Virus genome (UHGV): UHGV-0141061
DNA: 12,554 nucleotides
Direction: 5' to 3' (one strand)
Source of the DNA: a virus
Shown piece by piece: positions 1 through 12,554 of the stretch (position 1 is its first letter; every line of letters begins with the position of its first letter). A program made the position numbers and the translations under genes. The notes beneath the pieces are model-generated. The model ran no database searches. It had not been told where the DNA came from and was given only the letters and a program-made list of their open reading frames with translations.

Positions 1-48
1 TCTACACAGAGTAGATCGTCGGCAGCGTCAGATGTGTATAAGAGACAG
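1..48 (+). other. Illumina Nextera adapter (P5 tail CTACAC, i5 index AGAGTAGA, TCGTCGGCAGCGTC, Tn5 mosaic end AGATGTGTATAAGAGACAG); technical, not biological
   Basis: Read directly: 1-7 tctacac, 8-15 agagtaga, 16-29 tcgtcggcagcgtc, 30-48 agatgtgtataagagacag; its reverse complement is at 12508-12554. Confidence 0.9.
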
Positions 49-567
49 GCATATGGGTACGCATCATTCCTTTTTGGTATGGCTATATGTTTATGCGGAT
101 CATATAAGAATAAGGTTATTGGATATGCAATTCTTATTGCATCACTTTACTTGGCTGGATTTAAATATAATCATTATCTTTACGCATGGTTAAAAGAATT
201 TTCATTATCTATTAACAGCATTGAGAAAATAAATTTATACTTGCTTTTCAATCTATTATCTGGAATTGGAGTGGTATATTCCCTATGTAAGATTGGGGTT
301 ATGTCATGGTTTTCTGAATCAAAAATCATGGTCTTTTTAGGAAAGTTATCATTCTCGGCATACTTAATTCAAATGCCTGTATTTTATTGCTTATCAGGGC
401 CAGTTTATCATGAATCAAGGAAAATCATGAGCGACTCCAGCGCATGTTTATCAGCTGTTTTAATATCAGTGGTGATGCTTTATGCATGTTCTTACATCTT
501 TTATTTGCTCATCGACAGAAAAAGCATCGAGGTTTCCCATAGATTTGCCGCGATCTTTTCAAAGTAA
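49..567 (+). CDS. Acyltransferase family 3 (Oac/OafA-like O-antigen acetyltransferase), C-terminal fragment; 5' end cut by the contig/adapter boundary
   Basis: Frame is open from the adapter junction to TAA 565-567; very hydrophobic multi-pass sequence with an FLGKLSFSAYLIQMPVFY-type segment typical of the C-terminal part of family-3 acyltransferases; AT-rich; sits next to a tailspike as in Sf6-type phages. The track's start at 34 lies inside the adapter. Confidence 0.55.
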   Translation, partial: AYGYASFLFGMAICLCGSYKNKVIGYAILIASLYLAGFKYNHYLYAWLKEFSLSINSIEKINLYLLFNLLSGIGVVYSLCKIGVMSWFSESKIMVFLGKLSFSAYLIQMPVFYCLSGPVYHESRKIMSDSSACLSAVLISVVMLYACSYIFYLLIDRKSIEVSHRFAAIFSK

Positions 568-574
568 AATTAGA

Positions 575-596
575 AGCCATGCGTTAGCGCATGGCT
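575..596. terminator. Candidate bidirectional terminator hairpin between convergent genes
   Basis: Perfect 9-bp inverted repeat AGCCATGCG / CGCATGGCT with a 4-nt loop, between stop codons at 565-567 (+) and 603-605 (-); flanks only moderately T-rich. Confidence 0.4.
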
Positions 597-602
597 TGAC
601 CT

Positions 603-1667
603 TTAGTAAGAGATAGGTATTTCTCCTGTAGAGAAGTTGCCTGCTGCACCTTCCCTGCTGCATAAAGCGAACTTCTTATCAACCACATCCCTTGAGTCTG
701 TAGCAATAATTTCATGGCAAATATTATTTGCAGATCTGTGCACGAATGTATTTACAACAGGCTTACTGGACGATGTTCCTTTGGCCCTCGTTCCGTCTAT
801 AAGGCAATCAGACACCGACATAAGTCCTGAAACTAGGTTATTGCTTGAATCCCAATCTATCAACGACTTATCAAAATACACGCTTCCTAACATATAGGTT
901 GTCCCTCCGGAGTAACCAACAAACCTGCGCAGCACTCCACCTTCCAGCCTAATATAGCTGCGAGACATTCCAGACGTAAAGTTCATGAAAGTTATGTCCA
1001 TATTGCTCTCAAGACCATAAAGGCATGATGCATACTCATTCAGGTATCCAATATAAGCTAAAACCTTACAACCAATTGATTTCGCAGGTGTCAGTTTGAC
1101 TATTGATATTTCTCTGGAAGTTGAATCATGGTAAGAGATGGCCCACTCAAATCTTGCATTTTTACCATTAAAGGTGCTTCCGGAGAAATCTATAACGCCA
1201 GGCATAATGAAATCACGAATAATGCTATTTTGTGTCTTAAAATTATTTTTAAATGAAACAATGTTAAGTGTGACTGCGTCAGGCCAGTAGATATTTGTAG
1301 ATATAATTACATTTTTTGGCAGATTTAATGCTCTTGGCTGAACAGGGCTACCAGTGGAAACAACATTATCACACCTGCATGTGAAGAGATCTACAAGCCC
1401 AGTTTTGTCCGATGATATTCTTACCGAACCCCCTTTGACAATAAAATCCCCCTTATGCTCTCCATAGTCAGTGCGAATCCCAAAGGGACCAATATCTGAG
1501 TTTATAATCTGCGTTGATTCATCAAAAGCGCCAGTACCAAAAGCCGCGCCATTAATTATCCTGCAATTGTCTATCAAAACCTTAGACGATCCATAATGAA
1601 GATTGAAGCTATCAACAGTGCAATCTCTTACCACAGTGTCACGGCTATAATTACCATCAATAGAACG
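603..1667 (-). CDS. Tailspike, distal (receptor-binding, beta-helix-like) portion; same frame as 1668-2849 but separated from it by TGA at 1668-1670
   Basis: Track ORF 603-1634 starts at GTG; the frame is open upstream to the TGA (linking codons RSIDGNYSRDTV); Gly/Ser/Asn/Thr-rich beta-strand-like sequence; AT-rich. Confidence 0.55.
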   Translation of the reverse strand, partial: RSIDGNYSRDTVVRDCTVDSFNLHYGSSKVLIDNCRIINGAAFGTGAFDESTQIINSDIGPFGIRTDYGEHKGDFIVKGGSVRISSDKTGLVDLFTCRCDNVVSTGSPVQPRALNLPKNVIISTNIYWPDAVTLNIVSFKNNFKTQNSIIRDFIMPGVIDFSGSTFNGKNARFEWAISYHDSTSREISIVKLTPAKSIGCKVLAYIGYLNEYASCLYGLESNMDITFMNFTSGMSRSYIRLEGGVLRRFVGYSGGTTYMLGSVYFDKSLIDWDSSNNLVSGLMSVSDCLIDGTRAKGTSSSKPVVNTFVHRSANNICHEIIATDSRDVVDKKFALCSREGAAGNFSTGEIPISY

Positions 1668-2849
1668 TCACCCTTTCCCAACAACAGTGCTAAAAAAAGA
1701 ATGCTTCAGAGTAAACTCTAGAGTCAATGTGTAGCGAGATTCAGAATCAGGTTGTGTCATCCCCGATGAGCACAAATACCAATTAACACCGTATGTATTA
1801 CTACTACCAAAAATTGCAGAGTTGATGGGTATTACGCCTAAGGTATTATCATAATTAACCCTTACATCAACCATAGACCTTTTGATATCAACAGCCGTGC
1901 CAGTAAACGTCCCTGATAACTTAGGCAATACAATGACAGTCCTTCGCACAGGCAGCTTATATAAAGTACAGATAAGTGAAGAGTTGTATGTATTCTTAAA
2001 TGTATACGCTAAATCACTTCCTTTGGTTAGTAGGTTAACTTCACCTTTGTATTTTGGCGTGAAAGTGCTGCCAAGCAATCGGTACAAGTCAATTTCAGTA
2101 CCAGACATCTTAACTAAGGAATTATCCCATCCAGTGGTTGACTCTGTAAATGTTAGCGCGGAAGTTAGCTCGTTTAATGGATATGCTGATGGTGTAAAAT
2201 CTTTAATGTATGTAGATGCGTCTCTCTCATCAGCATAAACAATCTTACCGCCAGCCAGGTTGAACGTGCAATTGCTGAGATCAAAATCTCCGTATAACGT
2301 TGTCTCTTTGTCGATAGTGAAAGTCAGTGGCATAGTTGAGTAGATTTTCACTGGAGTTCCTTTAAACTCAGCAAAAACAGAATTCAACTGATCGCTATTT
2401 CTTTCACCATCAGCAGCAGCTATATCGTATACAGAAAGCCTGACCTCTAACCCCCCTATTATTTTGTAACCGTCTGGCGAACTAATTTCATCCATGAACC
2501 TTTGCTCAAACTGGTCAGGGTCATACTTCAGCACATTCGGAAAATAGAACTGCTGAGAACCGTACGCATCGTATACAGCCATAGAATGGCCTTGCACAGT
2601 TACGAATTTGGCAATCTGTCCGTTATATACAGGATACCCGCCAGCGTTAATGATGATTGGCTGTGCAACAGGAACGTGAGAACCGTCTTCGTTTTCCACA
2701 TAAACCTGAATCTGGTTTTCAGGATTTACCGGGTCAGTGCCAATTTTACCGATATAAATTTTGCCATTGGCTACGGCTTTAAAAGAACGAGCCATAGTGA
2801 AGAGTTGCGAAGGCATGCTTACCACAACATTTGCGGTGATATCTGACAT
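1668..2849 (-). CDS. P22-type tailspike, N-terminal part including the head-binding domain; ends at an in-frame TGA
   Basis: From ATG 2847-2849 (GGAG 7 nt upstream): [78 protein letters not shown], which closely parallels the P22 gp9 head-binding domain as I recall it. The track's start at 2897 is an upstream in-frame extension. Confidence 0.8.
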
Positions 2850-2937
2850 TTCATTGCTCCAGACGAATGATATGATGCAACCATGATGTGATTGCATACC
2901 GAAATGGTACTATTGAGTATTTATCCAGTAGGTTACG

Positions 2938-3231
2938 ATGCCATTCCACCCAACTGGTGAGGCATCAAGGATGTACAGCAAATACGACGAGGCGCAGTTT
3001 CACTTGAGACTTCCGCATGAACTTCACGCGAAAATTAAACAGCGTGCGAAGATGAATAACAGGTCGCTGAACTCAGAGATAATTGCAGCGATTGAAGAAT
3101 CATTGACTAAACAAAGCTCTGCATCAGTTTACATTGACGATGCAGAGCGTATGGCAGAACAACAATCCGATATGGTAAAGAAAATTGTCTTTGATACGCT
3201 CAAAGAGCTATATAAAAAAGACAGCAGCTAA
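2938..3231 (+). CDS. mnt: Mnt-like ribbon-helix-helix repressor
   Basis: FHLRLPHELHAKIKQRAKMNNRSLNSEIIAAIEESL...DAERMAEQQSDMVKKIVFDTLKELYKK parallels P22 Mnt (FNFRMPMEVREKLKFRAEANGRSMNSELLQIVQDAL...DAERLADEQSELVKKMVFDTLKDLYKK, recalled). An alternative start is ATG 2971. Confidence 0.8.
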   Translation: MPFHPTGEASRMYSKYDEAQFHLRLPHELHAKIKQRAKMNNRSLNSEIIAAIEESLTKQSSASVYIDDAERMAEQQSDMVKKIVFDTLKELYKKDSS

Positions 3232-3238
3232 CTATCAG

Positions 3239-3742
3239 TTACGGAGGATTCCCGATAGGGGGTAAGGGGGTATTTGTATTTATTGTCTTTTGTATATTGT
3301 CTTTTGTGTTTGACTGATTCGGTAAATTGCTTTTTACCGATTTGGTGAAGGTTTGTTTTACCGAATTGGTAAATGTTTTACCGAATCCGTTAACTTTCGT
3401 TTTCCACTCGGAAATGTTTGTATTCATACCAACTTGACGCCCCACCTGAATGAGAACTCCCATTCTGATAAGCTCGTTTTTGGCGGTAGAGCATTTGGTT
3501 GGTGCCATGCCAGTGAGTTCAGCGAACTGTTCGTTTCCGATCCAATCTATTTTTTTGTTGTAACCGTATGTCTTGCGCCACACAGCCATAACAATCAGTA
3601 ACTGATGTAGAGTAAGTCCAGAAAGCATGGCGGCTTCTAACAGTGTGTTTGCAGTCCGAGTGTAGCCATCTTCGAGTTCTGCCACGCGATGCTCCACGAC
3701 CTCCAGTTGAGGCCTGTAATCAGCTAACTTAACGACGCCCAT
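3239..3742 (-). CDS. Replication initiator O-like protein, N-terminal (iteron-binding) domain only; C-terminal domain absent
   Basis: DGYTRTANTLLEA..LTLHQLLIVMAVWRKTYGYNKKIDWIGNEQFAELTGMAPTKCSTAKNELIRMGVLIQ..NISEW parallels the lambda O N-terminal domain (recalled). AGGAG lies upstream of ATG 3740-3742. The ORF ends at TAA 3239-3241 just after the iteron and A+T-rich segment, where lambda O continues for about 130 more codons. Confidence 0.7.
   Translation of the reverse strand: MGVVKLADYRPQLEVVEHRVAELEDGYTRTANTLLEAAMLSGLTLHQLLIVMAVWRKTYGYNKKIDWIGNEQFAELTGMAPTKCSTAKNELIRMGVLIQVGRQVGMNTNISEWKTKVNGFGKTFTNSVKQTFTKSVKSNLPNQSNTKDNIQKTINTNTPLPPIGNPP
3318..3393. repeat. ori-like iteron array inside the O-like gene
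   Basis: Three direct 18-bp repeats TTTTACCGA(T/A)TTGGT(G/A)AA at 3332-3349 and 3356-3373 and TTTTACCGAATCCGTTAA at 3376-3393, plus an inverted partial copy ATTCGGTAAA at 3318-3327; an A+T-rich segment follows at about 3270-3317, arranged as in lambda ori. Confidence 0.5.
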
Positions 3743-3890
3743 GTTTCACTCCTGCTTTGGCTAGTCTGTAAACACCAACAAGGCGCTCTGCGAACGCCCT
3801 GTTATTTGCTGCGGCTACCACTAATCCCTCAGGTGAATCAGGGTGTCGAATCTCTTCTTTTTCCTGGTATTTCTTACGACGTTTTGTCAT
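3729..3890 (-). CDS. Small basic hypothetical protein (53 aa) between cII and O, overlapping the O-like start
   Basis: ATG 3888-3890 with AGGAG 7 nt upstream; MTKRRKKYQEKEEIRHPDSPEGLVVAAANNRAFAERLVGVYRLAKAGVKHGRR; stop TAA 3729-3731 overlaps the O-like start codon in another frame. Below the track's size cut-off; no homolog recognised. Confidence 0.3.
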   Translation of the reverse strand: MTKRRKKYQEKEEIRHPDSPEGLVVAAANNRAFAERLVGVYRLAKAGVKHGRR

Positions 3891-3900
3891 AATTACTCCT

Positions 3901-3976
3901 GTAGATTGATCCAGTAATTCCCTCAGAATTGCATATCAATTTGCTTAAAATCCTCGGTGGCGGCCGGGGATTTTTT
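3901..3976 (+). ncRNA. oop: OOP-like antisense RNA, antisense to the 3' end of cII, with intrinsic terminator
   Basis: gtagattgatccagtaatt..ctcagaa..tcctcggtggcggccgggga+TTTTTT parallels lambda OOP RNA (GUUGAUAGAUCCAGUAAUGACCUCAGAA...CGCUCGGUUGCCGCCGGGCGUUUUUU, recalled); hairpin 3952-3969 followed by a T-tract 3971-3976; a candidate -10 CATAAT is at 3888-3893. Confidence 0.5.
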
Positions 3977-4219
3977 CTTTGTGATTCCATCCAATGCATA
4001 CTTAAAAGCCCTGCTAATCGGACTGATGTCTGATGCCATTCCGAAAGCACACAAGACCGAAGCAATAAACCTCCAGTCCGTTCTGCTTATCTTCGATTCA
4101 TGACAGCCAATCATCTTTGCCAGACCGCGCTGGGTAAGCGTTGACAGGTTGATGAGTAAATCAGTTTCAGCGCGATCAATTTCTCGCTGTGTTGGCTTGC
4201 TATAACTTGCTTGTGTCAT
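3923..4219 (-). CDS. cII: CII-like transcriptional activator
   Basis: C-terminal ..KISRTDW..ITKKKSPAATEDFKQIDMQF parallels lambda CII ..QISRWKRDW..LTNKKRPAATERSEQIQMEF; position downstream of cro. Confidence 0.85.
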   Translation of the reverse strand: MTQASYSKPTQREIDRAETDLLINLSTLTQRGLAKMIGCHESKISRTDWRFIASVLCAFGMASDISPISRAFKYALDGITKKKSPAATEDFKQIDMQF

Positions 4220-4303
4220 TTGTTAATTTTCCAATAGTGAATAGTTAGTTGAAAGGTATGCGTGGAAACGCATATGGCCTTAGTTGGTCAGATATCTTGG
4301 GGC

Positions 4304-4349
4304 TCGCTTTGTCAGCGACGTAGGACGAATGTCCATTGTGAAAAGAGCG
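4304..4349 (-). promoter_or_regulatory. nutR-like site: boxA CGCTCTTTT and P22-type boxB hairpin TCGCTGACAAAGCGA
   Basis: On the - strand just downstream of the cro stop: boxA-like at 4341-4349, boxB stem-loop at 4304-4318 (5-bp stem, GACAA loop). The spacer is about 22 nt, longer than in lambda. Confidence 0.45.
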
Positions 4350-4356
4350 GTGTTAC

Positions 4357-4557
4357 TTATGCAGTTGTTTTTTTGTTACTTGGGAAGGGCTTTATTTCTT
4401 CCGCATAAACGCTTCCATCAGCGTTTATAGTTAAAAAAATCTTTCGGCCTGCATGAATGGCCTTGTTAATCGCGCTTTGATATACGCCGAGATCTTTAGC
4501 CGTCTTGGTTTGCCCAAAGCGTATTGCATAATCTTTCAGGGTTATGCGTTGTTCCAT
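4357..4557 (-). CDS. cro: Cro repressor, near-identical to lambda Cro
   Basis: 66 aa [66 protein letters not shown]; differs from recalled lambda Cro at about 2 residues; AGGAGG precedes the ATG. Confidence 0.95.
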
Positions 4558-4581
4558 ACAACCTCCTTAGTACAGGCAACC

Positions 4582-5371
<790 letters not shown>

Positions 5372-5402
5372 TTGTTTTATTTTTCACGTAATAGGATGAT
5401 TT

Positions 5403-5744
5403 ATGACACAATTTCAACTTGCATTAATCGCTAGAGAAGTTGATGGAGAAGTCATCCATCTTCGCACCAAAGACGGATACATCAATGCCACCGCGATGTG
5501 CAAGTCTGCGGGGAAGCTACTTGCTGACTATACACGACTAAAAACAACACAAGATTTTTTTGATGAATTATCACGCGATATGGGGATTCCCATATCGGAG
5601 TTAATTCAATCATTTAAAGGCGGAAGAGCAGAGAATCAAGGGACTTGGGTTCATCCAGACATCGCAATTAATTTAGCTCAGTGGCTATCTCCAAAATTTG
5701 CAGTGCAAGTATCGAGATGGGTGCGTGAGTGGATGTCAGGTTAA
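5403..5744 (+). CDS. KilA-N domain protein (113 aa) immediately downstream of cI, in the position of lambda rexA
   Basis: AGGA 6 nt upstream of ATG 5403; GYINATAMCKSAGK...GTWVHPDIAINLAQWLSPKFAVQVSRWV is the characteristic KilA-N pattern; same strand as cI. Confidence 0.7.
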   Translation: MTQFQLALIAREVDGEVIHLRTKDGYINATAMCKSAGKLLADYTRLKTTQDFFDELSRDMGIPISELIQSFKGGRAENQGTWVHPDIAINLAQWLSPKFAVQVSRWVREWMSG

Positions 5745-5783
5745 AGAGCGCCTGCCGAACTCCCTATCCACCTTAAGCGGTAT

Positions 5784-6162
5784 ATGACAAACCGAGGCAG
5801 AGTTCCTCATACGCACTTTTCTATGCTTAATGAACTGACGTTTAACTTGGTTGCGCCACTTGAACAGGCCGGATATACGCTGCCAGAAAAAATGGTCCCT
5901 GATATTTCAGAGGGTAGGGTTTTCTCGCAATGGCTCCGTGACAACCGGGGGGTTGAGCCGAAGACATTCCCAACATATAACCATGAGTACCCAGATGGCC
6001 GGACATTCCCGGTACGTCTATACCCAAACGAATATTGCAGATTTCAAACAATACTTCAACGAAGTGTGGCTGCCTCAGTACGCTCCTAAATATTTTGCTG
6101 AACGAGACCAAAGGGCATTGACGTTGATTGAGAAAATCATGCTACCTGACCTTGATTCCTAA
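5784..6162 (+). pseudogene. Hypothetical protein with a broken reading frame (+1 shift between two overlapping ORFs 5784-6089 and 5851-6162)
   Basis: Frame 1 ...FPTYNHEYPDGRTFPVRLYPNEY and frame 2 ...NIADFKQYFNEVWLPQYAPKYFAERDQRALTLIEKIMLPDLDS both look protein-like and switch near 6020-6040; frame 1 is also in frame with the upstream KilA-N ORF across TAA 5742-5744; weak ribosome-binding site. Confidence 0.4.
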
Positions 6163-6170
6163 ATGTTATT

Positions 6171-6196
6171 CCCGGCCACAGAGCCGGGTTTTCTTT
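6171..6196 (+). terminator. Intrinsic terminator ending the cI operon
   Basis: CCCGGC-cacaga-GCCGGG stem-loop followed by TTTTCTTT, 8 nt after the stop at 6160-6162. Confidence 0.7.
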
Positions 6197-6348
6197 GCCT
6201 CACGATCCCCCTCACCCAAGAACACATAACCAATTGTATCTATTTGAAAATAAATAGATACAACTCACTAAACATAGCAGTTCAGATCTCTCACCTACCA
6301 AACAATGCACCACTGCAAAAAATAAATTCATATAAAAAACATACAGAT

Positions 6349-6410
6349 AACCATCTGCGGTGATGAATTATCTCTAGCGGTGTTGACATAAATACCACTG
6401 GCGGTGATAC
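6349..6410 (+). promoter_or_regulatory. Lambda-type left operator OL3 (6349-6365), OL2 (6369-6385), OL1 (6393-6409) with PL (-35 TTGACA 6382-6387, -10 GATACT 6405-6410)
   Basis: aaccatctgcggtgatg, tatctctagcggtgttg, taccactggcggtgata and the PL hexamers read directly; near-identical to lambda OL/PL. Confidence 0.9.
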
Positions 6411-6479
6411 TAAACACATCAGCAGGACGCACTACTCACCAGGGCGGTGAATATACAACGATTCAAATATGAATCTACG

Positions 6480-6494
6480 GCGCTGACAAAGCGC
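6480..6494 (+). promoter_or_regulatory. nutL-like boxB hairpin GCGCTGACAAAGCGC (P22 type)
   Basis: Perfect 5-bp stem with GACAA loop about 65 nt downstream of PL; matches the P22 boxB-left sequence as I recall it; no clear boxA upstream. Confidence 0.5.
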
Positions 6495-6557
6495 AATAAC
6501 CAAAGTGAACTTTGGGGTGAATGCAGAAGCTAACCTTCTCGGCGGAGGCGCTTTGCA

Positions 6558-6758
6558 ATGATTACGCTAAGCGAAATGCTTCGCTCATATAAACCAGATG
6601 AACACACTAAGGACGCTATCGACTGGCTGGAAGATGATGACTGTAACTATCAGGAAAAAGCCGCTGAATGGTTCTGGGATGCAATAACCGAAAGAGTTAA
6701 GGCTGAATATGCCTTCGCAATATTCAAACGCAGACACATTTTTGGAGAAGCTGCATGA
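6558..6758 (+). CDS. Small acidic hypothetical protein (66 aa), first gene of the PL operon
   Basis: GGAGG 9 nt upstream of ATG 6558; stop overlaps the next start (ATGA at 6755-6758), implying translational coupling; no homolog recognised. Confidence 0.5.
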   Translation: MITLSEMLRSYKPDEHTKDAIDWLEDDDCNYQEKAAEWFWDAITERVKAEYAFAIFKRRHIFGEAA

Positions 6759-7090
6759 GCAATATCGTTGAATTCGTTAAACAGCAGGAGCAGTTATTCT
6801 GCGGAGCATTGACTGAACAGACGGTGACATGGGCTAAGGAAAGCCAGTTTGCAATTCAGTATTTCCAGAAAAACGATTACCTGGCTAAAACAGCACTGGC
6901 AAATCCAACCAGCGCACAGAACGCCATCATCAATGTTGCGGCGATCGGCATCACCTTAAACCCGGCCAGCAAACTGGCTTATCTGGTTCCTCGCGACGGC
7001 ATGGTGTGCCTTGATATCAGTTACATGGGATTACTTCATCTTGCGCAATCGACAGGATCAATTAAGTGGGGGCAATGCAAACTGGTGTAA
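6755..7090 (+). CDS. RecT/Red-beta-family recombinase, N-terminal fragment (truncated)
   Basis: ..NAIINVAAIGITLNPASKLAYLVPRDGMVCLDISYMGLLHLAQSTGSI.. follows the conserved RecT core pattern (E. coli RecT ..IVQCSQLGLEPGSALGHAYLLPFG..IIGYRGMIDLARRSGQI.., recalled) but stops at 111 aa where full-length proteins have about 270. Confidence 0.5.
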   Translation: MSNIVEFVKQQEQLFCGALTEQTVTWAKESQFAIQYFQKNDYLAKTALANPTSAQNAIINVAAIGITLNPASKLAYLVPRDGMVCLDISYMGLLHLAQSTGSIKWGQCKLV

Positions 7091-7223
7091 AGGGTGTGAG
7101 CACTTTTCAATAGTAGCACCGCAGCAAGATGGGTGATGAAAACAAGTATTTATAACTTAAAGGCATTAAAAAATCGCTTATAGATCAAAAGAAATCTACG
7201 TCAAATATTACTATATTTCAATG

Positions 7224-7232
7224 TGTTATAAT
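7224..7232 (+). promoter_or_regulatory. Candidate extended -10 promoter (TGtTATAAT) for the downstream small ORF
   Basis: TG at 7224-7225 and TATAAT at 7227-7232 inside a very AT-rich segment (7091-7250); no good -35. Confidence 0.3.
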
Positions 7233-7261
7233 TACCCGTCCATAAAATGGGGAGACACAAA

Positions 7262-7504
7262 ATGTTCAAACGCTGCATCACCAAGTGTGGAAGCACACCT
7301 GACATCCACGCTTTTATTAATGAAGATGGTAAGCTTGTTGTTGAGAGGAGTGGTCATTTTATTAGCAAACAACTTATCATTACCTCTCCAGCGGAGATGG
7401 CCGGGGAATGGATAGTTTCTGAACCAGAGGAGTGGCACACCCCTCTTCCTTATGGCCCTCAGGGACTGATTTATAACCGTTATGTTCAGAAGGAGGCGGG
7501 TTGA
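7262..7504 (+). CDS. Hypothetical protein (80 aa)
   Basis: GGAGAC 5 nt upstream of ATG 7262; the track ORF begins at the in-frame ATG 7247, which has no ribosome-binding site; no homolog recognised. Confidence 0.4.
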   Translation: MFKRCITKCGSTPDIHAFINEDGKLVVERSGHFISKQLIITSPAEMAGEWIVSEPEEWHTPLPYGPQGLIYNRYVQKEAG

Positions 7505-7781
7505 CAATGCCAGGCATAACATCGCCGAGCAATCGAAAGAAAAACAGAACAAGGTAAACGTTGACCTTGCAGCATCAGGCGTGGCGTACAGAGAGCGCCT
7601 TAACATACCTGTTATCTGAGCAGGTAGCACGAGAGCAACCTGAGCACTCACGCGAGTATTTCATGGAGCGCGTCAGATACTATCGCGAGCAGTCGTTAAA
7701 CCTGCCCAAGGGAAGCAACCCATGGTATATCGAGATGGATGAACAGAACGCCAAGAAGTAAGCGCAATTTGAACGAATGCG

Positions 7782-7838
7782 AACCCGCCGAGTGCGGGTT
7801 TTCTTTTATCTGAACTCGCTACGGCGAGTTTTGTTTTA
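7782..7838 (+). terminator. Two tandem intrinsic terminators
   Basis: AACCCGC-cgagt-GCGGGTT followed by TTTTCTTTT (7782-7807), and ACTCGC-tacg-GCGAGT followed by TTTTGTTTT (7814-7838). Confidence 0.6.
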
Positions 7839-7850
7839 TGGAGACAAGAA

Positions 7851-8195
7851 ATGTCAGATTTGGCTATGAAGGTTTTGAAATGGCAATCAACTGGCGATGT
7901 CGGCATCAGTAGCGCAACTCTTGCCTCAATCGCATGTGGCCTGAAAAAGAATATCTATGGTCATCACTTCGGCGCTCCCCATGACGCAGCAGACTTTCGG
8001 CGATGCGTTGCACTTGTTGAGCAGATTCCAGAAATCAGAGATTCATTCGACAAGGTTGCAAAGCGCGTTCCGGCATTCAAAGGAATCCTCAACGAATGGG
8101 ATTCCCTCGTTGCTCTGTTGAAGTCTGAAATGAAGATACACGGAAACAAAGCACCAGAGACTTACAGAAGAATCAGCGAGCTACGCAAGGACTAA
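7851..8195 (+). CDS. Hypothetical protein (114 aa), moron-like gene bracketed by terminators
   Basis: GGAGAC upstream of ATG 7851; terminator pairs immediately before (7782-7838) and after (8199-8259); no homolog recognised. Confidence 0.5.
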   Translation: MSDLAMKVLKWQSTGDVGISSATLASIACGLKKNIYGHHFGAPHDAADFRRCVALVEQIPEIRDSFDKVAKRVPAFKGILNEWDSLVALLKSEMKIHGNKAPETYRRISELRKD

Positions 8196-8198
8196 CCC

Positions 8199-8259
8199 GC
8201 CTCACACTCGATGAGGCCTGTTTATATCTGATAGAGCCGCTATATGGCGGTTTATTTTT
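8199..8259 (+). terminator. Terminator-like hairpins downstream of the 7851-8195 gene
   Basis: GCCTCA-cactcga-TGAGGC (8199-8217) followed by a T-rich stretch, and CCGC-tatatg-GCGG (8237-8250) followed by TTTATTTTT. Confidence 0.45.
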
Positions 8260-8274
8260 GCCTGGAGAATTAAG

Positions 8275-8466
8275 ATGACCGATACCAGCCTGATTCCTGA
8301 GAAAGAAGTGATGAACAAGCTCGGTGTTTCATCACGTCAGACAATCTGGAACTATACCAAACGGCACGGATTTCCGAAGCCAGTCAGAACCCACCCCAAA
8401 TCATACCTTCGTGAAGCTGTTGAAGGGTGGATTCTTAACGGTGGCGTTAATCAGAAATGCTCCTGA
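8275..8466 (+). CDS. AlpA/Xis-family DNA-binding protein (excisionase or regulator)
   Basis: GGAGA upstream of ATG 8275; ..MNKLGVSSRQTIWNYTKRHGFPKPVRT..YLREAVEGWI is the AlpA-type winged-helix pattern; lies beside the integrase; its 3' end overlaps the integrase 3' end by 20 bp. Confidence 0.8.
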   Translation: MTDTSLIPEKEVMNKLGVSSRQTIWNYTKRHGFPKPVRTHPKSYLREAVEGWILNGGVNQKCS

Positions 8467-8920
8467 TGTGCCAGAACAATTTATCAGCGTGAAGCTCATA
8501 CGCTTTGCGCTGAGCCTCTATCCAATCGAGTTTATTGTATACGGACATTATCCCGCCAAGTTCATGACCGAGCATTCGCTCAGTAACATGAGGCTCGACA
8601 TTCATCTCGGACAGCCGTGTAACAAGCGTTCTTCTGAAATCATGTGTTCGCCAGTAACCTAGGTCCATCCCTCCCCTTATTCTATTTACGAATCGGTTGG
8701 CTGCAGCGATGCTGATCGGTTTGTTTATGTCTTCTCCAGGGAAAAGAACATCATTGTACGTTGTCATGGCCTTTTCGAGGAAAGGCTTAATTTGTTCGAA
8801 GATTGGACGGCGGATAACATTACCCATCTTGCTATGCTCTTTCGGTACGGTCCATACGTTGTCCAGCAGGTCAAATTCTGTCTTTATTGCCAGCCTAAGT
8901 TCTGAGAGCCTCGCCCCCAC
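8447..8920 (-). pseudogene. Tyrosine integrase (P4 type), C-terminal catalytic fragment
   Basis: ..GARLSELRLAIKTEFDLLDNVWTVP..HDFRRT..LGHELGGIMSVYNKLDW.. shows the catalytic R/H-x-x-R/Y region; its frame differs from the central fragment at a C5 run (8914-8918). Confidence 0.8.
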
Positions 8921-9136
8921 AGCATAAGCATCTGATGAAGTAGCTTATTTGACGTAGACGCACGGCTTCTTTCAATAGCAAGCCAAATCTTAGCCAGTTC
9001 GTGATACGACAGTACCCGATCCCCTACCTCAGCGCGGGAGCCGAAGTCCCTTGGTTGGATGCTCATAATTGCGCAACTATCTATCAACTGACGCCGCATG
9101 CACCAACTAATTGCTGATCTTAGTTGACTTAGCACC
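8884..9136 (-). pseudogene. Tyrosine integrase, central fragment between the IS insertion and the frameshift
   Basis: In frame with the N-terminal fragment once the IS and one target duplication are removed (1341 bp, a multiple of 3); ends at a stop 8884-8886 created by the frameshift. Confidence 0.6.
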
Positions 9137-9200
9137 TGATGTAGCCCCCTGAAACACCAGACAGTAGCTGTATCTCCAGATAAGAGATAGGCTTGAATAT

Positions 9201-9596
9201 ATGTCTAACACTAACACCAATATTGAGATGACCGGGATCCTGTTAGGGCAAGAAGTCCGTAAACGTAAAACTCCTCAGGAGAAGATCGCCATTATCCAGC
9301 AGACGATGGAGCCGGGTATGAATGTCTCCCATGTCGCCCGCCTGCATGGTATCCAGCCCAGCCTGCTGTTTAAGTGGAAGAAGCAATATCAGGAAGGCAG
9401 CCTCACCGCCGTTGCGGCTGGAGAGGAAGTCGTTCCTGCTTCTGAGCTTACTGCTGCTCTGAAGCAGGTCCGGGAGCTTCAGCGCCTTCTGGGCAAGAAG
9501 ACGATAGAAGTTGAGATCCTAAAAGAAGCCGTGGAGTACGGTCAGTCGCGAAAATGGATAGCGCACGCGCCCTTGTTGCCAAAGGACGGGGAATAG
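9201..9596 (+). CDS. IS3-family transposase OrfA (helix-turn-helix and leucine zipper)
   Basis: ..[78 protein letters not shown].. resembles IS2 OrfA. Confidence 0.85.
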
Positions 9597-10435
9597 CCAT
9601 GGTCAGCCGGACCATGGGCGTGTCGCGTGCGCAACTGTCACTGCGGATTAACCGTTCTGCCGACTGGCAGGACAGGCGCTGTAACCGGCGTAATGAAGAA
9701 GCAGACGCAGAAATACTGTCGGCTATCCTCAACATTATCAGCGATATGCCGAGTTATGGTTATCGACGCGTGTGGGGCATCCTGCGCAAGCAACGTCGCA
9801 CAGAGGGACAGCCACCTGTGAATGCCAAACGGCTTTACAGGATAATGAGCGAGCATAACCTGTTGTTGTTGCATCACAAACCAGAGCGACCGAAGCGTGA
9901 ACATAAGGGCAAGATAGCGGTGGCAGAAAGCGATATGCGCTGGTGTTCAGATGGCTTCGAGTTCGGCTGCGACAACGGCGAAAAACTGCGGGTAACGTTC
10001 GCGCTGGACTGCTGCGACCGTGAGGCCATAGACTGGGCAGCAAGCACGGGAGGCTATGACAGTTCGACCGTGCAGGATGTGATGCTGAGGTCGGTGGAAA
10101 AGCGCTTCGGCGACAGGCTGCCGGAAACACCAGTGCAGTGGCTGACGGACAACGGTTCAGCATATACCGCGCATGAAACGCGGAGGTTCGCCAAAGAGCT
10201 GAATCTGGAGCCATGTACAACAGCGGTGAGCAGCCCGCAGAGCAATGGCATGGCCGAACGGTTCGTGAAGACGATGAAGGAAGACTATATCGCGTTCATG
10301 CCGAAACCGGATGTGAGAACAGCCCTGCGGAACCTTGCAGCGGCGTTCACGCATTACAATGAAAATCACCCGCATAGTGCGCTGGGATATCACTCTCCGA
10401 GAGAATACCGGCGGCAGCGGGCATCGTTAACTTAA
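9554..10435 (+). CDS. IS3-family transposase OrfB (DDE catalytic domain), in the -1 frame relative to OrfA
   Basis: ..[92 protein letters not shown].. is a DDE integrase-core pattern resembling IS2 OrfB; overlaps orfA by 43 nt. Confidence 0.85.
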
Positions 10436-10472
10436 GATACAAAAGCTGTCCGGAAATGGCGGGTCAAGATCA

Positions 10473-10965
10473 GCACCTGCCTTGCTCGGCGTGGATTATC
10501 TTTTTCTTCTTCGGTAAGCAGGTCAACCCATTGCTTAACCGTGATAGAAGATGCCGGACGATTAGGGAAGGCGTCATGCATGCGCTTCATAACCGTTGAT
10601 CGGTAAAGTGCCTGGGTCTTTTCTCTGAGAGTTGTAGAGACGTAGTTGTCGAACCAGTAGTCGAGACACTGGGCGACCGTCATGGAGTTCTCCACCTTCT
10701 CTTCAAAATAGGTGCGTGGATCCGTTCCTGAGAAATAGAGCTTCCGCAAGTCAGCAGTGATCTGTCTGGCATCCTTCAAAGACAGGGATGGGTATCGACC
10801 AAGCCCAAGTCGTTTAGGCTTGCCATACCAGCGATAGCGGTACTGGAACTGGATGACCCCCTTCGGTGAAATTCGTACGCTGAGGCCATCGGCATCAGCC
10901 ACTTCTTGTGGGCCCGAATATGGTTTACCATAAATAGTACGCAGTTTTGTGTCGCTTATAGCCAT
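10473..10965 (-). pseudogene. Tyrosine integrase (P4 type), N-terminal fragment upstream of the IS insertion
   Basis: MAISDTKLRTIYGKPYSGPQEVADADGLSVRISPKGVIQFQYRYRWYGKPKRLGLGRYPSLSLKDAR is the characteristic N-terminal arm-binding domain of P4-type integrases; the track ORF continues 13 codons into the IS before stopping. Confidence 0.8.
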
Positions 10966-11146
10966 AAATAATATTTGGTACGCTCAAAAATAATGGTTTG
11001 GTACACATCTGGTACACAATATCACATGGACAACAGCGCACAGTAAACAACTATATTTGACGTTCGTAGACATACTCAGGTGAAAAAATGGTTGTTTTTC
11101 GAGTTATAACAGACAGTTAATTAACTACAGTGGACAATGCTAGACA
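10966..11146. promoter_or_regulatory. Putative prophage-host junction (attL-like) and integrase promoter region with short direct repeats
   Basis: TGGTAC(ACA) at 10976-10981, 10999-11007 and 11010-11018; GACAATG at 11133-11139 and 11143-11149; palindrome TTAATTAA at 11118-11125; lies between the integrase start and sbcB. Confidence 0.3.
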
Positions 11147-12507
11147 ATGACAGACACAGATAAACAACCTACCTTCCTCTTTCACGATTACGAAACCTTT
11201 GGCACGCACCCCGCGTTAGATCGCCCTGCACAGTTCGCAGCCATTCGCACCGATAGCGAATTCAATGTCATCGGCGAACCCGAAGTCTTTTACTGCAAGC
11301 CCGCTGATGACTATTTACCCCAGCCAGGAGCCGTATTAATTACCGGTATTACCCCGCAGGAAGCACGGGCGAAAGGAGAAAACGAAGCCGCGTTTGCCGC
11401 CCGTATTCACTCGCTTTTTACCGTACCGAAGACCTGTATTCTGGGCTACAACAATGTGCGTTTCGACGACGAAGTCACACGCAACGTTTTTTATCGTAAT
11501 TTCTACGATCCTTACGCCTGGAGCTGGCAGCATGATAACTCGCGCTGGGATTTGCTGGATGTTATGCGTGCCTGTTATGCCCTGCGCCCGGAAGGAATAA
11601 ACTGGCCTGAAAATGATGACGGTCTACCGAGCTTTCGCCTTGAGCATTTAACCAAAGCGAATGGAATTGAACATAGCAACGCCCACGATGCGATGGCTGA
11701 TGTGTACGCCACTATTGCGATGGCGAAACTGGTAAAAACGCGTCAGCCACGTCTGTTTGATTATCTCTTTACCCATCGTAATAAACACAAACTGATGGCG
11801 TTGATTGATGTTCCGCAGATGAAACCCCTGGTTCACGTTTCCGGAATGTTTGGGGCATGGCGCGGCAATACCAGCTGGGTGGCACCGCTGGCGTGGCATC
11901 CAGAAAATCGCAATGCCGTAATTATGGTGGATTTGGCAGGAGACATTTCGCCATTACTGGAACTGGATAGCGACACATTGCGCGAGCGTTTATATACTGC
12001 AAAAGCCGATCTTGGCGATAACGCCGCCGTTCCGGTTAAGCTGGTGCATATCAATAAATGTCCGGTGCTGGCCCAGGCGAATACGCTACGCCCGGAAGAT
12101 GCCGACCGACTGGGAATTAATCGTCAGCATTGCCTCGATAACCTGAAAATTCTGCGTGAAAATCCGCAAGTGCGTGAAAAAGTGGTGGCGATATTCGCGG
12201 AAGCCGAACCGTTTACGCCTACAGATAACGTGGATGCACAGCTTTATAACGGCTTTTTCAGTGACGCAGATCGTGCAGCAATGAAAATTGTGCTGGAAAC
12301 CGAGCCACGTAATTTACCGGCACTGGATATCACTTTTGTTGATAAACGGATTGAAAAGCTGTTGTTCAATTATCGGGCACGCAACTTCCCGGGGACGCTG
12401 GATTATGCCGAGCAGCAACGCTGGCTGGAGCACCGCCGCCAGGTATTCACGCCAGAGTTTTTGCAGGGTTATGCTGATGAATTGCAGATGCTGGTACAAC
12501 AATATGC
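11147..12507 (+). CDS. sbcB: Exodeoxyribonuclease I (SbcB), 3' end truncated by the contig/adapter boundary
   Basis: By-eye translation with no stops: MTDTDKQPTFLFHDYETFGTHPALDRPAQFAAIRTDSEFNVIGEPEVFYCKPADDYLPQPGAVLITGITPQEA...EFLQGYADELQMLVQQYA matches E. coli SbcB except in the first 12 or so residues. Absent from the ORF track, presumably because it has no stop before the window end. Confidence 0.9.
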
Positions 12508-12554
12508 CTGTCTCTTATACACATCTGACGCTGCCGACGATCTACTCTGTGTAG
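12508..12554 (-). other. Illumina Nextera adapter, reverse complement of 2-48; technical
   Basis: ctgtctcttatacacatct gacgctgccgacga tctactct gtgtag read directly. Confidence 0.9.

What the first reader, a model, noticed from the sequence alone, without database searches (positions are those of the whole stretch)
1..48. Contig is capped at both ends by inverted Nextera adapter copies
1-48 and 12508-12554 are reverse complements of each other and match the Nextera adapter with i5 index AGAGTAGA. The window therefore looks like a single library insert or an adapter-contaminated contig. Terminal ORF ends (start at 34; the last residues of the sbcB frame) are artefacts, and single-base lesions elsewhere (TGA at 1668, frameshifts at 6020-6040 and 8914-8918) could be sequencing errors.
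Basis: seen in the sequence. Interest (0 to 1): 0.35.

Follow-up and report, generated by a model that had tools for sequence, protein, structure and literature searches.

The report
Sequencing adapter left on contig ends
Both ends of this contig carry leftover Illumina Nextera library adapter rather than biology, while the 12.46 kb between them is ordinary, correctly assembled E. coli DNA (a decayed prophage next to sbcB).

Summary
Window 1-48 is the last 48 nt of the Nextera i5 adapter: P5 tail TCTACAC, index S504 AGAGTAGA, read-1 site and the 19-nt Tn5 mosaic end. Window 12508-12554 is the reverse complement of its last 47 nt. Both matches are exact.

The window is the reverse complement of ENA contig ERZ652521 NODE_127_length_12554_cov_12.15. 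A 46-kb scaffold from a separately deposited assembly is 100.000% identical to window 49-12508. It continues on both sides with real genes where the window has adapter.

The adapter is therefore an artefact. Most likely, untrimmed read-through reads were assembled by a de Bruijn assembler. The same adapter caps hundreds of unrelated public contigs, and stub length peaks at 47-48 nt.

- "Single library insert" is not supported: header coverage is 12x, both ends carry i5, and the sequence sits inside a larger scaffold.
- "Terminal ORF ends are artefacts" is correct. The public gene calls on this contig include adapter-coded residues.
- "Lesions could be sequencing errors" is not supported. All three recur in the other assembly, and the KilA-N lesions also occur in an isolate genome. 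They fit decay of a dead prophage.

The finding is known and routine, and interest is low.

The parts
1..7 (+). Last 7 nt (TCTACAC) of the P5 flow-cell sequence of the i5 index primer
   Evidence: Exact suffix match to the adapter. The primer layout AATGATACGGCGACCACCGAGATCTACAC + 8-nt tag + TCGTCGGCAGCGTC is given in PMC6791352.
8..15 (+). i5 index AGAGTAGA (Nextera S504/N504)
   Evidence: S504 = AGAGTAGA in the index table of PMC7845766. In other capped public contigs this 8-nt slot varies while its flanks stay invariant.
16..29 (+). Read-1 sequencing-primer part of the Nextera adapter (TCGTCGGCAGCGTC)
   Evidence: Exact match. Listed as part of iNext_R1_stub in PMC6791352.
30..48 (+). Tn5 mosaic end AGATGTGTATAAGAGACAG, with its 3' end abutting the insert
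   Evidence: Exact match. Only 2 copies in the window with up to 3 mismatches allowed, 0 expected.
49..54 (.). GCATAT, genuine insert bases that happen to extend the terminal inverted repeat to 53 nt (partner 12502-12507 ATATGC)
   Evidence: These bases are genomic in the independent scaffold. 0.083% of pairs of capped ends from different contigs share 6 or more such bases.
49..567 (+). C-terminal 172 codons of a 382-aa Acyl_transf_3 membrane protein gene, cut by the left adapter junction
   Evidence: Pfam Acyl_transf_3 profile positions 189-325 of 326, E 2.6e-4, below Pfam's cutoff. The full 382-aa gene with an Acyl_transf_3 hit is called in scaffold L329.
11147..12507 (+). sbcB (exodeoxyribonuclease I), lacking its last 21 codons because of the right adapter junction
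   Evidence: Pfam RNase_T plus Exonuc_X-T_C, profile positions 1-250 of 269. The full 474-aa SbcB is present in L329 and the gene continues in E272.
12508..12526 (-). Tn5 mosaic end, reverse complement (CTGTCTCTTATACACATCT). Its first C coincides with the true genomic base.
12527..12540 (-). Read-1 primer part of the adapter, reverse complement
12541..12548 (-). i5 index S504, reverse complement (TCTACTCT)
12549..12554 (-). Last 6 nt of P5, reverse complement (GTGTAG). The TAG serves as a false stop codon for ORF 12288-12554.

Best explanation
The two terminal segments are synthetic Illumina Nextera adapter: P5 tail, i5 index S504, read-1 primer site and Tn5 mosaic end. They were assembled onto the ends of a metagenomic E. 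coli contig.

**Proposed mechanism**
1. In a tagmentation library, fragments shorter than the read length make read 2 run through the insert into the reverse complement of the i5 adapter.
2. These reads were not adapter-trimmed.
3. The de Bruijn assembler followed one such read at each end of the contig, out of the genome and into the adapter sequence shared by all such reads.
4. It stopped at the first branching k-mer, leaving stubs of 48 and 47 nt. With k = 55 this corresponds to about 7-8 insert-specific bases.

The two junctions come from two unrelated library fragments 12.46 kb apart. The 12,459-12,460 nt in between are genuine, correctly assembled chromosome.

**Shown**
- The identity of the adapter.
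- Its absence from the same locus in another assembly.
- The contig is a 12x SPAdes-style NODE.
- The stub geometry is the modal one in public assemblies.

**Inferred**
- Read-2 read-through.
- Lack of adapter trimming.
- The k = 55 stopping rule.
For: - **Adapter identity:** exact 48-nt and 47-nt matches to the adapter. Its parts are confirmed in the literature: the R1 stub and i5 primer layout (PMC6791352) and S504 = AGAGTAGA (PMC7845766).
- **Source contig:** the window equals the reverse complement of ena:ERZ652521:NODE_127_length_12554_cov_12.154812.
- **Independent scaffold:** scaffold_37 of ERZ28649434 (46,027 nt) is 100.000% identical to window 49-12508, with 0 mismatches and 0 gaps.
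  - Where the window has adapter, the scaffold has the rest of a 382-aa acyltransferase gene and the rest of a 474-aa sbcB.
  - Adapter versus true flank matches at only 13/48 and 12/46 positions, which is chance level. The scaffold stretch read (21 kb) contains no mosaic end.
- **Reference genome:** E. coli E272 also continues sbcB through the right junction.
- **Spread in public data:** With index S504 it caps 98 IMG/VR contigs and at least 120 GTDB genome contigs.
  - 312 of the 335 copies lie at the very end of the sequence held and are explained entirely by adapter.
  - Every such copy points inward, with its mosaic end next to the insert, as the test required.
- **Stub length:** in the GTDB set, mostly NODE_ contigs, stub length peaks at 47 (30 copies) and 48 (30 copies) out of 126.
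- **k = 55 ceiling:** stub length plus the longest insert prefix shared with any other end has a ceiling near 55.
- **Double capping:** double-capped contigs are routine, with 12 among the fetched loci.
- **Orientation:** the mosaic-end 3' end (...GACAG) faces the insert. That is the geometry of a tagmented target, not of a transposon.
Against: - **No raw reads:** raw reads were not available. Read-through, absence of trimming and the exact k are inferred.
- **Shared 6 bases:** the two ends share 6 insert bases beyond the adapter. In the empirical control this happens in 0.083% of pairs, and I attribute it to chance, noticed post hoc.
- **Why the assembler broke here:** metaSPAdes followed the adapter branch at these two sites rather than the genomic continuation, which a differently named assembly recovered. 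The reason is not explained in detail.
Confidence: 0.97

Rival explanations
1. The window is a single library molecule: one 12.46-kb fragment tagmented at both ends by adapter-A-loaded Tn5 and read in full.
For: Both ends carry a complete mosaic end facing inward, as a tagmented fragment would.
Against: - The contig header gives assembled k-mer coverage of 12.15 and a SPAdes NODE name.
- Both ends carry the i5 arm. A clusterable Illumina molecule needs i5 plus i7 (established library design; layout in PMC6791352).
- 12.46 kb is far beyond Illumina insert sizes.
- The stubs stop 48 and 47 nt into a 70-nt adapter. That is the modal stub length of assembled contigs, not a full-length adapter.
- The identical sequence is internal to a 46-kb scaffold.
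Confidence: 0.01
2. The terminal repeats are biological: either the ends of a Tn5/IS50-derived or engineered mosaic-end transposon, or the natural terminal inverted repeats of a linear element.
For: There is a perfect 53-nt terminal inverted repeat. The 19-nt mosaic end derives from Tn5 ends (established knowledge).
Against: - **Orientation:** it is the reverse of a transposon. A transposon's outer ends read 5'-CTGTCTCTTATACACATCT inward, whereas here that sequence reads outward and the DNA between the copies is the target.
- **Synthetic parts:** the repeat includes a sample index and a flow-cell oligo tail.
- **Content:** there is no transposase. The content is chromosomal sbcB plus a prophage remnant.
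- **Locus elsewhere:** the same locus in another assembly lacks the repeats and is contiguous with dacD and tusA.
- **Spread:** the same sequence caps contigs of Actinobacteria, Flavobacteria, Verrucomicrobia, Streptomyces and others.
Confidence: 0.003
3. The adapter marks a chimeric or misassembled contig, so the internal sequence and its gene lesions are unreliable.
For: - Adapter in contigs can bridge unrelated sequences.
- No complete E. coli genome covers more than 50% of the insert in one place.
Against: - There is no internal adapter copy.
- The whole insert is collinear with, and identical to, another assembly and a Logan contig.
- The low coverage by complete genomes reflects prophage mosaicism. 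The segments align to prophages beside sbcB in the same order and orientation.
- The KilA-N lesions are identical in isolate genome EC2641.
Confidence: 0.01

Closest known systems
Illumina Nextera / Nextera XT i5 adapter (P5 - i5 index S504/N504 - read-1 site - Tn5 mosaic end) as an assembly contaminant. NCBI VecScreen/UniVec and FCS-adaptor screen for this class (my own knowledge).
   Same: The sequence is identical base for base. It sits at contig termini with the mosaic end facing the insert. Stub length is the modal value seen in public SPAdes-type contigs.
   Different: Nothing of substance. Two minor peculiarities: both ends carry the i5 arm, which I would put at roughly one in four for double-capped contigs if the i5 and i7 arms are equally likely (my estimate, not measured). 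The two junctions also share 6 insert bases by apparent coincidence.
Tn5 / EZ-Tn5 mosaic-end transposon insertions
   Same: The same 19-bp mosaic end appears in inverted copies.
   Different: - The orientation is inverted relative to a transposon.
- The copies are attached to index and P5 sequence.
- There is no 9-bp target duplication flanking an element.
- The repeats are absent from the locus in another assembly.
Defective P22-like/lambdoid prophage between dacD and sbcB in E. coli (for example strain E272, NZ_CM173936)
   Same: The insert has the same site and gene order: tailspike, arc/mnt, truncated O, cII, cro, cI, KilA-N/BstA-like gene, recombination genes, xis-like gene, int, sbcB.
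   Different: - The tailspike receptor-binding part and the neighbouring acyltransferase have no megablast match in 5,426 complete E. coli genomes.
- int is split by a 1337-bp IS3-family element.

Membership tests
Illumina Nextera i5 library adapter (artefact) | 19-nt mosaic end AGATGTGTATAAGAGACAG preceded by TCGTCGGCAGCGTC | tested here: met
   Exact at 16-48 and, reverse complemented, at 12508-12540. The sequence is given as iNext_R1_stub in PMC6791352.
Illumina Nextera i5 library adapter (artefact) | 8-nt slot holding a catalogued i5 index, preceded by the ...GATCTACAC end of P5 | tested here: met
   AGAGTAGA = S504 (PMC7845766), preceded by TCTACAC. In other capped contigs the slot holds other 8-mers. 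Eight of them are the S501-S508 indexes in the table, and I recognise the rest as Nextera XT v2 indexes from memory.
Illumina Nextera i5 library adapter (artefact) | Mosaic-end 3' end abuts the insert, and the adapter lies at the contig terminus | tested here: met
   The same geometry holds for 312 of 335 copies in the fetched public contigs.
Illumina Nextera i5 library adapter (artefact) | Not part of the organism's genome: the same locus assembled elsewhere lacks it | tested here: met
   Scaffold L329 is 100% identical over 12,460 nt and continues with gene sequence. Adapter versus true flank matches at 13/48 and 12/46 positions. E272 continues sbcB.
Illumina Nextera i5 library adapter (artefact) | Raw reads show read-through of short inserts into adapter at these positions | not testable with these tools
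Tn5-type transposon with mosaic ends | Outer ends read CTGTCTCTTATACACATCT inward, enclosing cargo or transposase | tested here: not met
   The orientation is the opposite. The content is sbcB plus a prophage remnant.
Tn5-type transposon with mosaic ends | 9-bp direct target duplication outside the ends | tested here: not met
   Outside the mosaic ends lie only index and P5 sequence, then the contig end.
Single Illumina library molecule | One i5 (P5) end and one i7 (P7) end | tested here: not met
   Both ends are i5. No GTCTCGTGGGCTCGG or P7 sequence occurs within 2 mismatches.

The most novel reading that the evidence does not exclude
The six identical insert bases at both junctions (GCATAT next to the mosaic end) may not be coincidence. 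They could mark a sequence-specific Tn5 insertion hot-spot motif, or a quirk of how the assembly graph selects which adapter junctions survive as contig ends.
Probability: 0.08. Interest if true: 0.05.

Novelty: not a real feature. Interest (0 to 1): 0.04.

Why it matters
The finding matters only as data hygiene.

- **Trimming:** the 48 + 47 adapter bases should be trimmed before any analysis.
- **False signals:** they create a false 53-nt "terminal inverted repeat", false start codons at 32 and 34, and a false stop at 12552.
- **Contaminated proteins:** the public gene calls on this contig are a 188-aa product and a 469-aa SbcB. These carry 16 and about 15 adapter-coded residues respectively (STQSRSSAASDVYKRQ... 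and ...CLLYTSDAADDLLCV).
- **Scale:** the scans show the same contaminant on hundreds of public viral and MAG contigs. Terminal repeats in such collections should therefore be screened for adapter before being read as biology, for example as transposon or phage genome ends.

The insert itself can be trusted. Its pseudogenes are real features of a decaying prophage.

Tried and rejected
- **Source contig by junction search:** an exact junction-specific pattern found nothing in viral contigs or metagenome contigs.
- **Source contig by protein look-up:** the 409-aa tailspike ORF from its first ATG was not on record. The look-up succeeded only with the shorter 393-aa start.
- **Acyltransferase in phages:** tblastn of the acyltransferase fragment against the phage records gave no match.
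- **Sample provenance:** a literature search for ERZ652521, SAMN05826553 and SRR8090731 returned nothing. I could not decide whether the three metagenome assemblies derive from independent samples.
- **Do the two ends meet at one graph vertex?** That would explain the shared 6 nt. For k = 55 they would need to share 7-8 insert bases and they share 6, so I rejected it (reasoning).
- **Tn5 target preference for GCATAT:** position-wise base use at 205 junctions does not favour this hexamer.
- **Adapter-coded peptides in the protein database:** I did not run the expensive searches. The gene calls already show the effect.

Full report
**1. The observation**

Reading the two ends and matching them to the full Nextera i5 adapter gives:
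- Window 1-48 is exactly the last 48 nt of AATGATACGGCGACCACCGAGATCTACAC-AGAGTAGA-TCGTCGGCAGCGTC-AGATGTGTATAAGAGACAG.
- Window 12508-12554 is exactly the reverse complement of its last 47 nt.

The 19-nt mosaic end occurs only at these two places even with three mismatches allowed. None was expected in 200 shuffles. No i7, P7 or TruSeq sequence and no internal adapter copy is present.

The literature supports the adapter's parts:
- The R1 stub TCGTCGGCAGCGTCAGATGTGTATAAGAGACAG and the i5 primer layout (P5 + 8-nt tag + TCGTCGGCAGCGTC) are given in PMC6791352.
- S504 = AGAGTAGA is given in PMC7845766.

There are two refinements:
- The repeat finder reports a 53-nt perfect inverted repeat, 2-54 / 12502-12554. 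That is 6 nt (GCATAT) more than the adapter.
- The C at 12508 is also the true next base of the genome.

**2. What the insert is**

Window 49-12507 matches E. coli chromosomes at 96-98% in collinear blocks. The blocks end in sbcB and lie next to a tyrosine integrase. In strain E272 the equivalent locus is a defective P22-like prophage between dacD and sbcB (blocks). Pfam scans give this order:

| Window coordinates | Strand | Feature |
|---|---|---|
| 49-567 | + | Acyl_transf_3 C-terminal fragment |
| 603-2897 | - | Tailspike with P22-type head-binding domain |
| 2938-3231 | + | Arc/Mnt |
| 3239-3742 | - | Truncated replication protein O, with iteron-like repeats at 3332-3403 |
| 3923-4219 | - | cII |
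| 4357-4557 | - | cro |
| 4658-5371 | + | cI-type repressor |
| 5403-5744 | + | KilA-N |
| 6755-7090 | + | RecT-like fragment |
| 8275-8466 | + | Small AlpA/HTH-like ORF (both Pfam hits weak, below cutoff) |
| 8447-9135 and 10432-10965 | - | Integrase, split |
| 9137-10473 | . | IS3-family element |
| 11147 onward | + | sbcB |

**3. Provenance and the decisive comparison**

A look-up of the 393-aa tailspike product returned ena:ERZ652521:NODE_127_length_12554_cov_12.154812. This is exactly the reverse complement of the window.

It also returned a 46,027-nt scaffold from a different ENA assembly, ERZ28649434 (VATT16-1_SAMN05826553_METAG-scaffold_37). That scaffold is 100.000% identical to window 49-12508 over 12,460 nt, without a mismatch or gap, and it continues on both sides.
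- **Left:** the scaffold holds the remaining ~210 codons of a 382-aa acyltransferase, then dacD and sbmC.
- **Right:** it holds the last 21 codons of a 474-aa SbcB, then a TusA-family gene.

Where the window has adapter, the scaffold has unrelated sequence, with 13/48 and 12/46 matching positions, which is chance level. The 21-kb scaffold stretch that was read contains no mosaic end. E272 likewise continues sbcB past the right junction.

The adapter is therefore not part of the genome, and the sequence between the adapters is correctly assembled.

**4. How the artefact arises**

From established knowledge of Illumina paired-end libraries, inserts shorter than the read length make read 2 run into the reverse complement of the i5 adapter. 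The right end shows exactly that string, CTGTCTCTTATACACATCT-GACGCTGCCGACGA-TCTACTCT-GTGTAG..., and the left end shows its reverse complement.

The phenomenon is widespread:
- With index S504 it is found in 98 IMG/VR contigs.
- With index S504 it is found in at least 120 contigs of GTDB representative genomes, mostly MAGs with SPAdes NODE_ names.

Of 335 copies in the fetched loci, 312 lie at the very end of the sequence held and are fully explained by adapter. The 8-nt slot holds various 8-mers while the flanks are invariant. Eight of them are the S501-S508 indexes listed. I recognise the rest as Nextera XT v2 indexes from memory.

In the GTDB set the stub length is sharply peaked. There are 30 copies of 47 nt and 30 of 48 nt out of 126, with nearly all between 42 and 51. 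The window's 48 and 47 nt are the modal geometry.

Stub length plus the longest insert prefix shared with any other capped end has a ceiling near 55. Only 3 of 124 ends exceed it, and those may be pairs from different assemblies. This is what a de Bruijn graph with k = 55 predicts. A contig that leaves the genome through an adapter-containing read runs into the adapter 'hub' shared by all such reads. It stops at the first k-mer shared with another junction.

This part is inference. The k value and the absence of trimming were not checked against the assembly's metadata or reads.

**5. The 'single library insert' reading is rejected**

- The contig is a 12x-coverage assembled NODE.
- Both ends carry the i5 arm, whereas a sequenceable molecule needs i5 and i7 (layout).
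- The stubs are 47-48 nt rather than the full 70 nt.
- The identical sequence is embedded in a 46-kb scaffold.
- Double-capped contigs are common in the affected assemblies, with 12 among the fetched loci.

**6. The six shared insert bases**

Ten of the twelve other double-capped contigs share 0-2 bases beyond the adapter. Among 22,782 pairs of ends from different contigs, 0.083% share 6 or more. The window's GCATAT/GCATAT is therefore unusual.

I found no mechanism for it:
- At k = 55 the two ends would need to share 7-8 bases to meet at one vertex.
- Position-wise base use at 205 junctions does not favour this hexamer.

I treat it as coincidence noticed post hoc. It does inflate the apparent terminal repeat to 53 nt.

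**7. Consequences for gene calls**

- ORFs 32-193 and 34-567 start inside the mosaic end, and ORF 12288-12554 stops at the TAG of GTGTAG.
- The acyltransferase frame reads STQSRSSAASDVYKRQ from adapter.
- The sbcB frame ends ...QQYACLLYTSDAADDLLCV instead of ...QQYADDKEKVALLKALWQYAEEIV.
- The gene calls on record for NODE_127 are a 188-aa product spanning window 1-567 and a 469-aa product spanning window 11147-12553. Both therefore include adapter-coded residues.

**8. The internal 'lesions'**

*Tailspike.* Window 603-2897 (minus strand) is one 765-codon frame with a single TGA at 1668-1670. Phage homologues ECO1230-10 (77% identity) and P433.1 have Trp there (GKGWRS), so the change is TGG to TGA.

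It also has a 2-bp deletion at 6034/6035. Window 5372-6600 is 100.0% identical to isolate genome EC2641, where only the 113-aa stump is annotated.

*Integrase.* A C5 run at 8914-8918 is one base shorter than in E272. The top E. coli hits align 540 record bases to 539 query bases, so they too carry an extra base. The gene is separately split by a 1337-bp IS with a CACC or GCACC target duplication.

All three lesions are present in scaffold_37. Three contigs on record encode the identical TGA-truncated product. A Logan contig from SRR8090731 reproduces the IS/int/sbcB junction at 100% identity.

Random sequencing error is thus excluded for the KilA-N lesions and unlikely for the others, given a 12x consensus reproduced under differently named assemblies. 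Decay of a prophage that has already lost its morphogenesis genes is the simpler reading.

The caveat is that I could not show the metagenome assemblies come from different samples.

**9. Verdict**

It is a routine, well-known artefact and not a biological feature. The adapter bases should be trimmed and the rest of the contig is reliable. Interest is very low.

Noticed in passing
window 49-2445 (acyltransferase 49-567 on +; tailspike receptor-binding part 603 to about 2445 on -): An Acyl_transf_3 membrane protein (382 aa in scaffold L329) lies next to a tailspike. The part of that tailspike after the head-binding domain has essentially no megablast match in 5,426 complete E. coli genomes. The best hit reaches back only to 2211, and most start near 2445-2460. 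The receptor-binding part is 77% identical in protein to a tailspike of phage vB_EcoM_ECO1230-10. It may be an O-antigen-modifying / receptor-specificity module that is rare in sequenced isolates.
   Followed up: partly
window 1668-1670 (- strand): The tailspike carries a single in-frame TGA where homologues have a conserved Trp (GKGWRS). The same truncated 393-aa product is encoded on three contigs on record.
   Followed up: yes
window 5403-6164: A KilA-N / BstA-like gene directly downstream of the cI-type repressor is pseudogenised by a nonsense codon (5742) and a 2-bp deletion (6034/6035). The intact gene is 253 aa in strain ML35. In EC2641 the identical broken copy sits in a different prophage remnant, flanked by intS and torI. 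BstA-type genes at this position are known abortive-infection defences (my own knowledge).
   Followed up: partly
window 9137-10473: A 1337-bp IS3-family element (orfA 9201-9596, orfB 9554-10435) is inserted in the prophage integrase with a CACC or GCACC target duplication. It is about 69% identical to IS2. 100% identical copies occur in several E. coli isolates from frogs and sediment (ET490, ET745 and others). No complete E. coli genome has it at this site.
   Followed up: partly
window 4583-4648 and 6352-6409: Lambda-type operator half-sites (TATCACCGC / GCGGTGATA) flank a 237-aa cI-type repressor, a 66-aa Cro and a 98-aa CII. This is a lambda-like immunity region inside a P22-like prophage remnant, which is ordinary lambdoid mosaicism.
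   Followed up: no
window 3332-3403: Three direct repeats of about 20-28 nt (TTTTACCGA...) lie inside the truncated replication protein O gene. They look like origin iterons of a lambdoid ori.
   Followed up: no
L157 (IMGVR_UViG_3300045988_031658, 13,580 nt) and L017 (IMGVR_UViG_3300045988_179125, 14,934 nt): These two IMG/VR contigs are adapter-capped at both ends and have perfect terminal inverted repeats of 128 and 468 nt including the adapter. The same junction appears to have been assembled onto both ends, which is a different and larger artefact that could be mistaken for genuine terminal repeats of a viral genome.
   Followed up: partly
IMG/VR and GTDB genome collections: Nextera i5 adapter contamination of contig ends is widespread. 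A few datasets contribute most hits: IMG 3300045988 and 3300009124, and MAGs from SRR39331xx-39333xx runs. One isolate genome also carries it (Streptomyces lydicus NRRL ISP-5461, NZ_JNZA01000082).
   Followed up: partly
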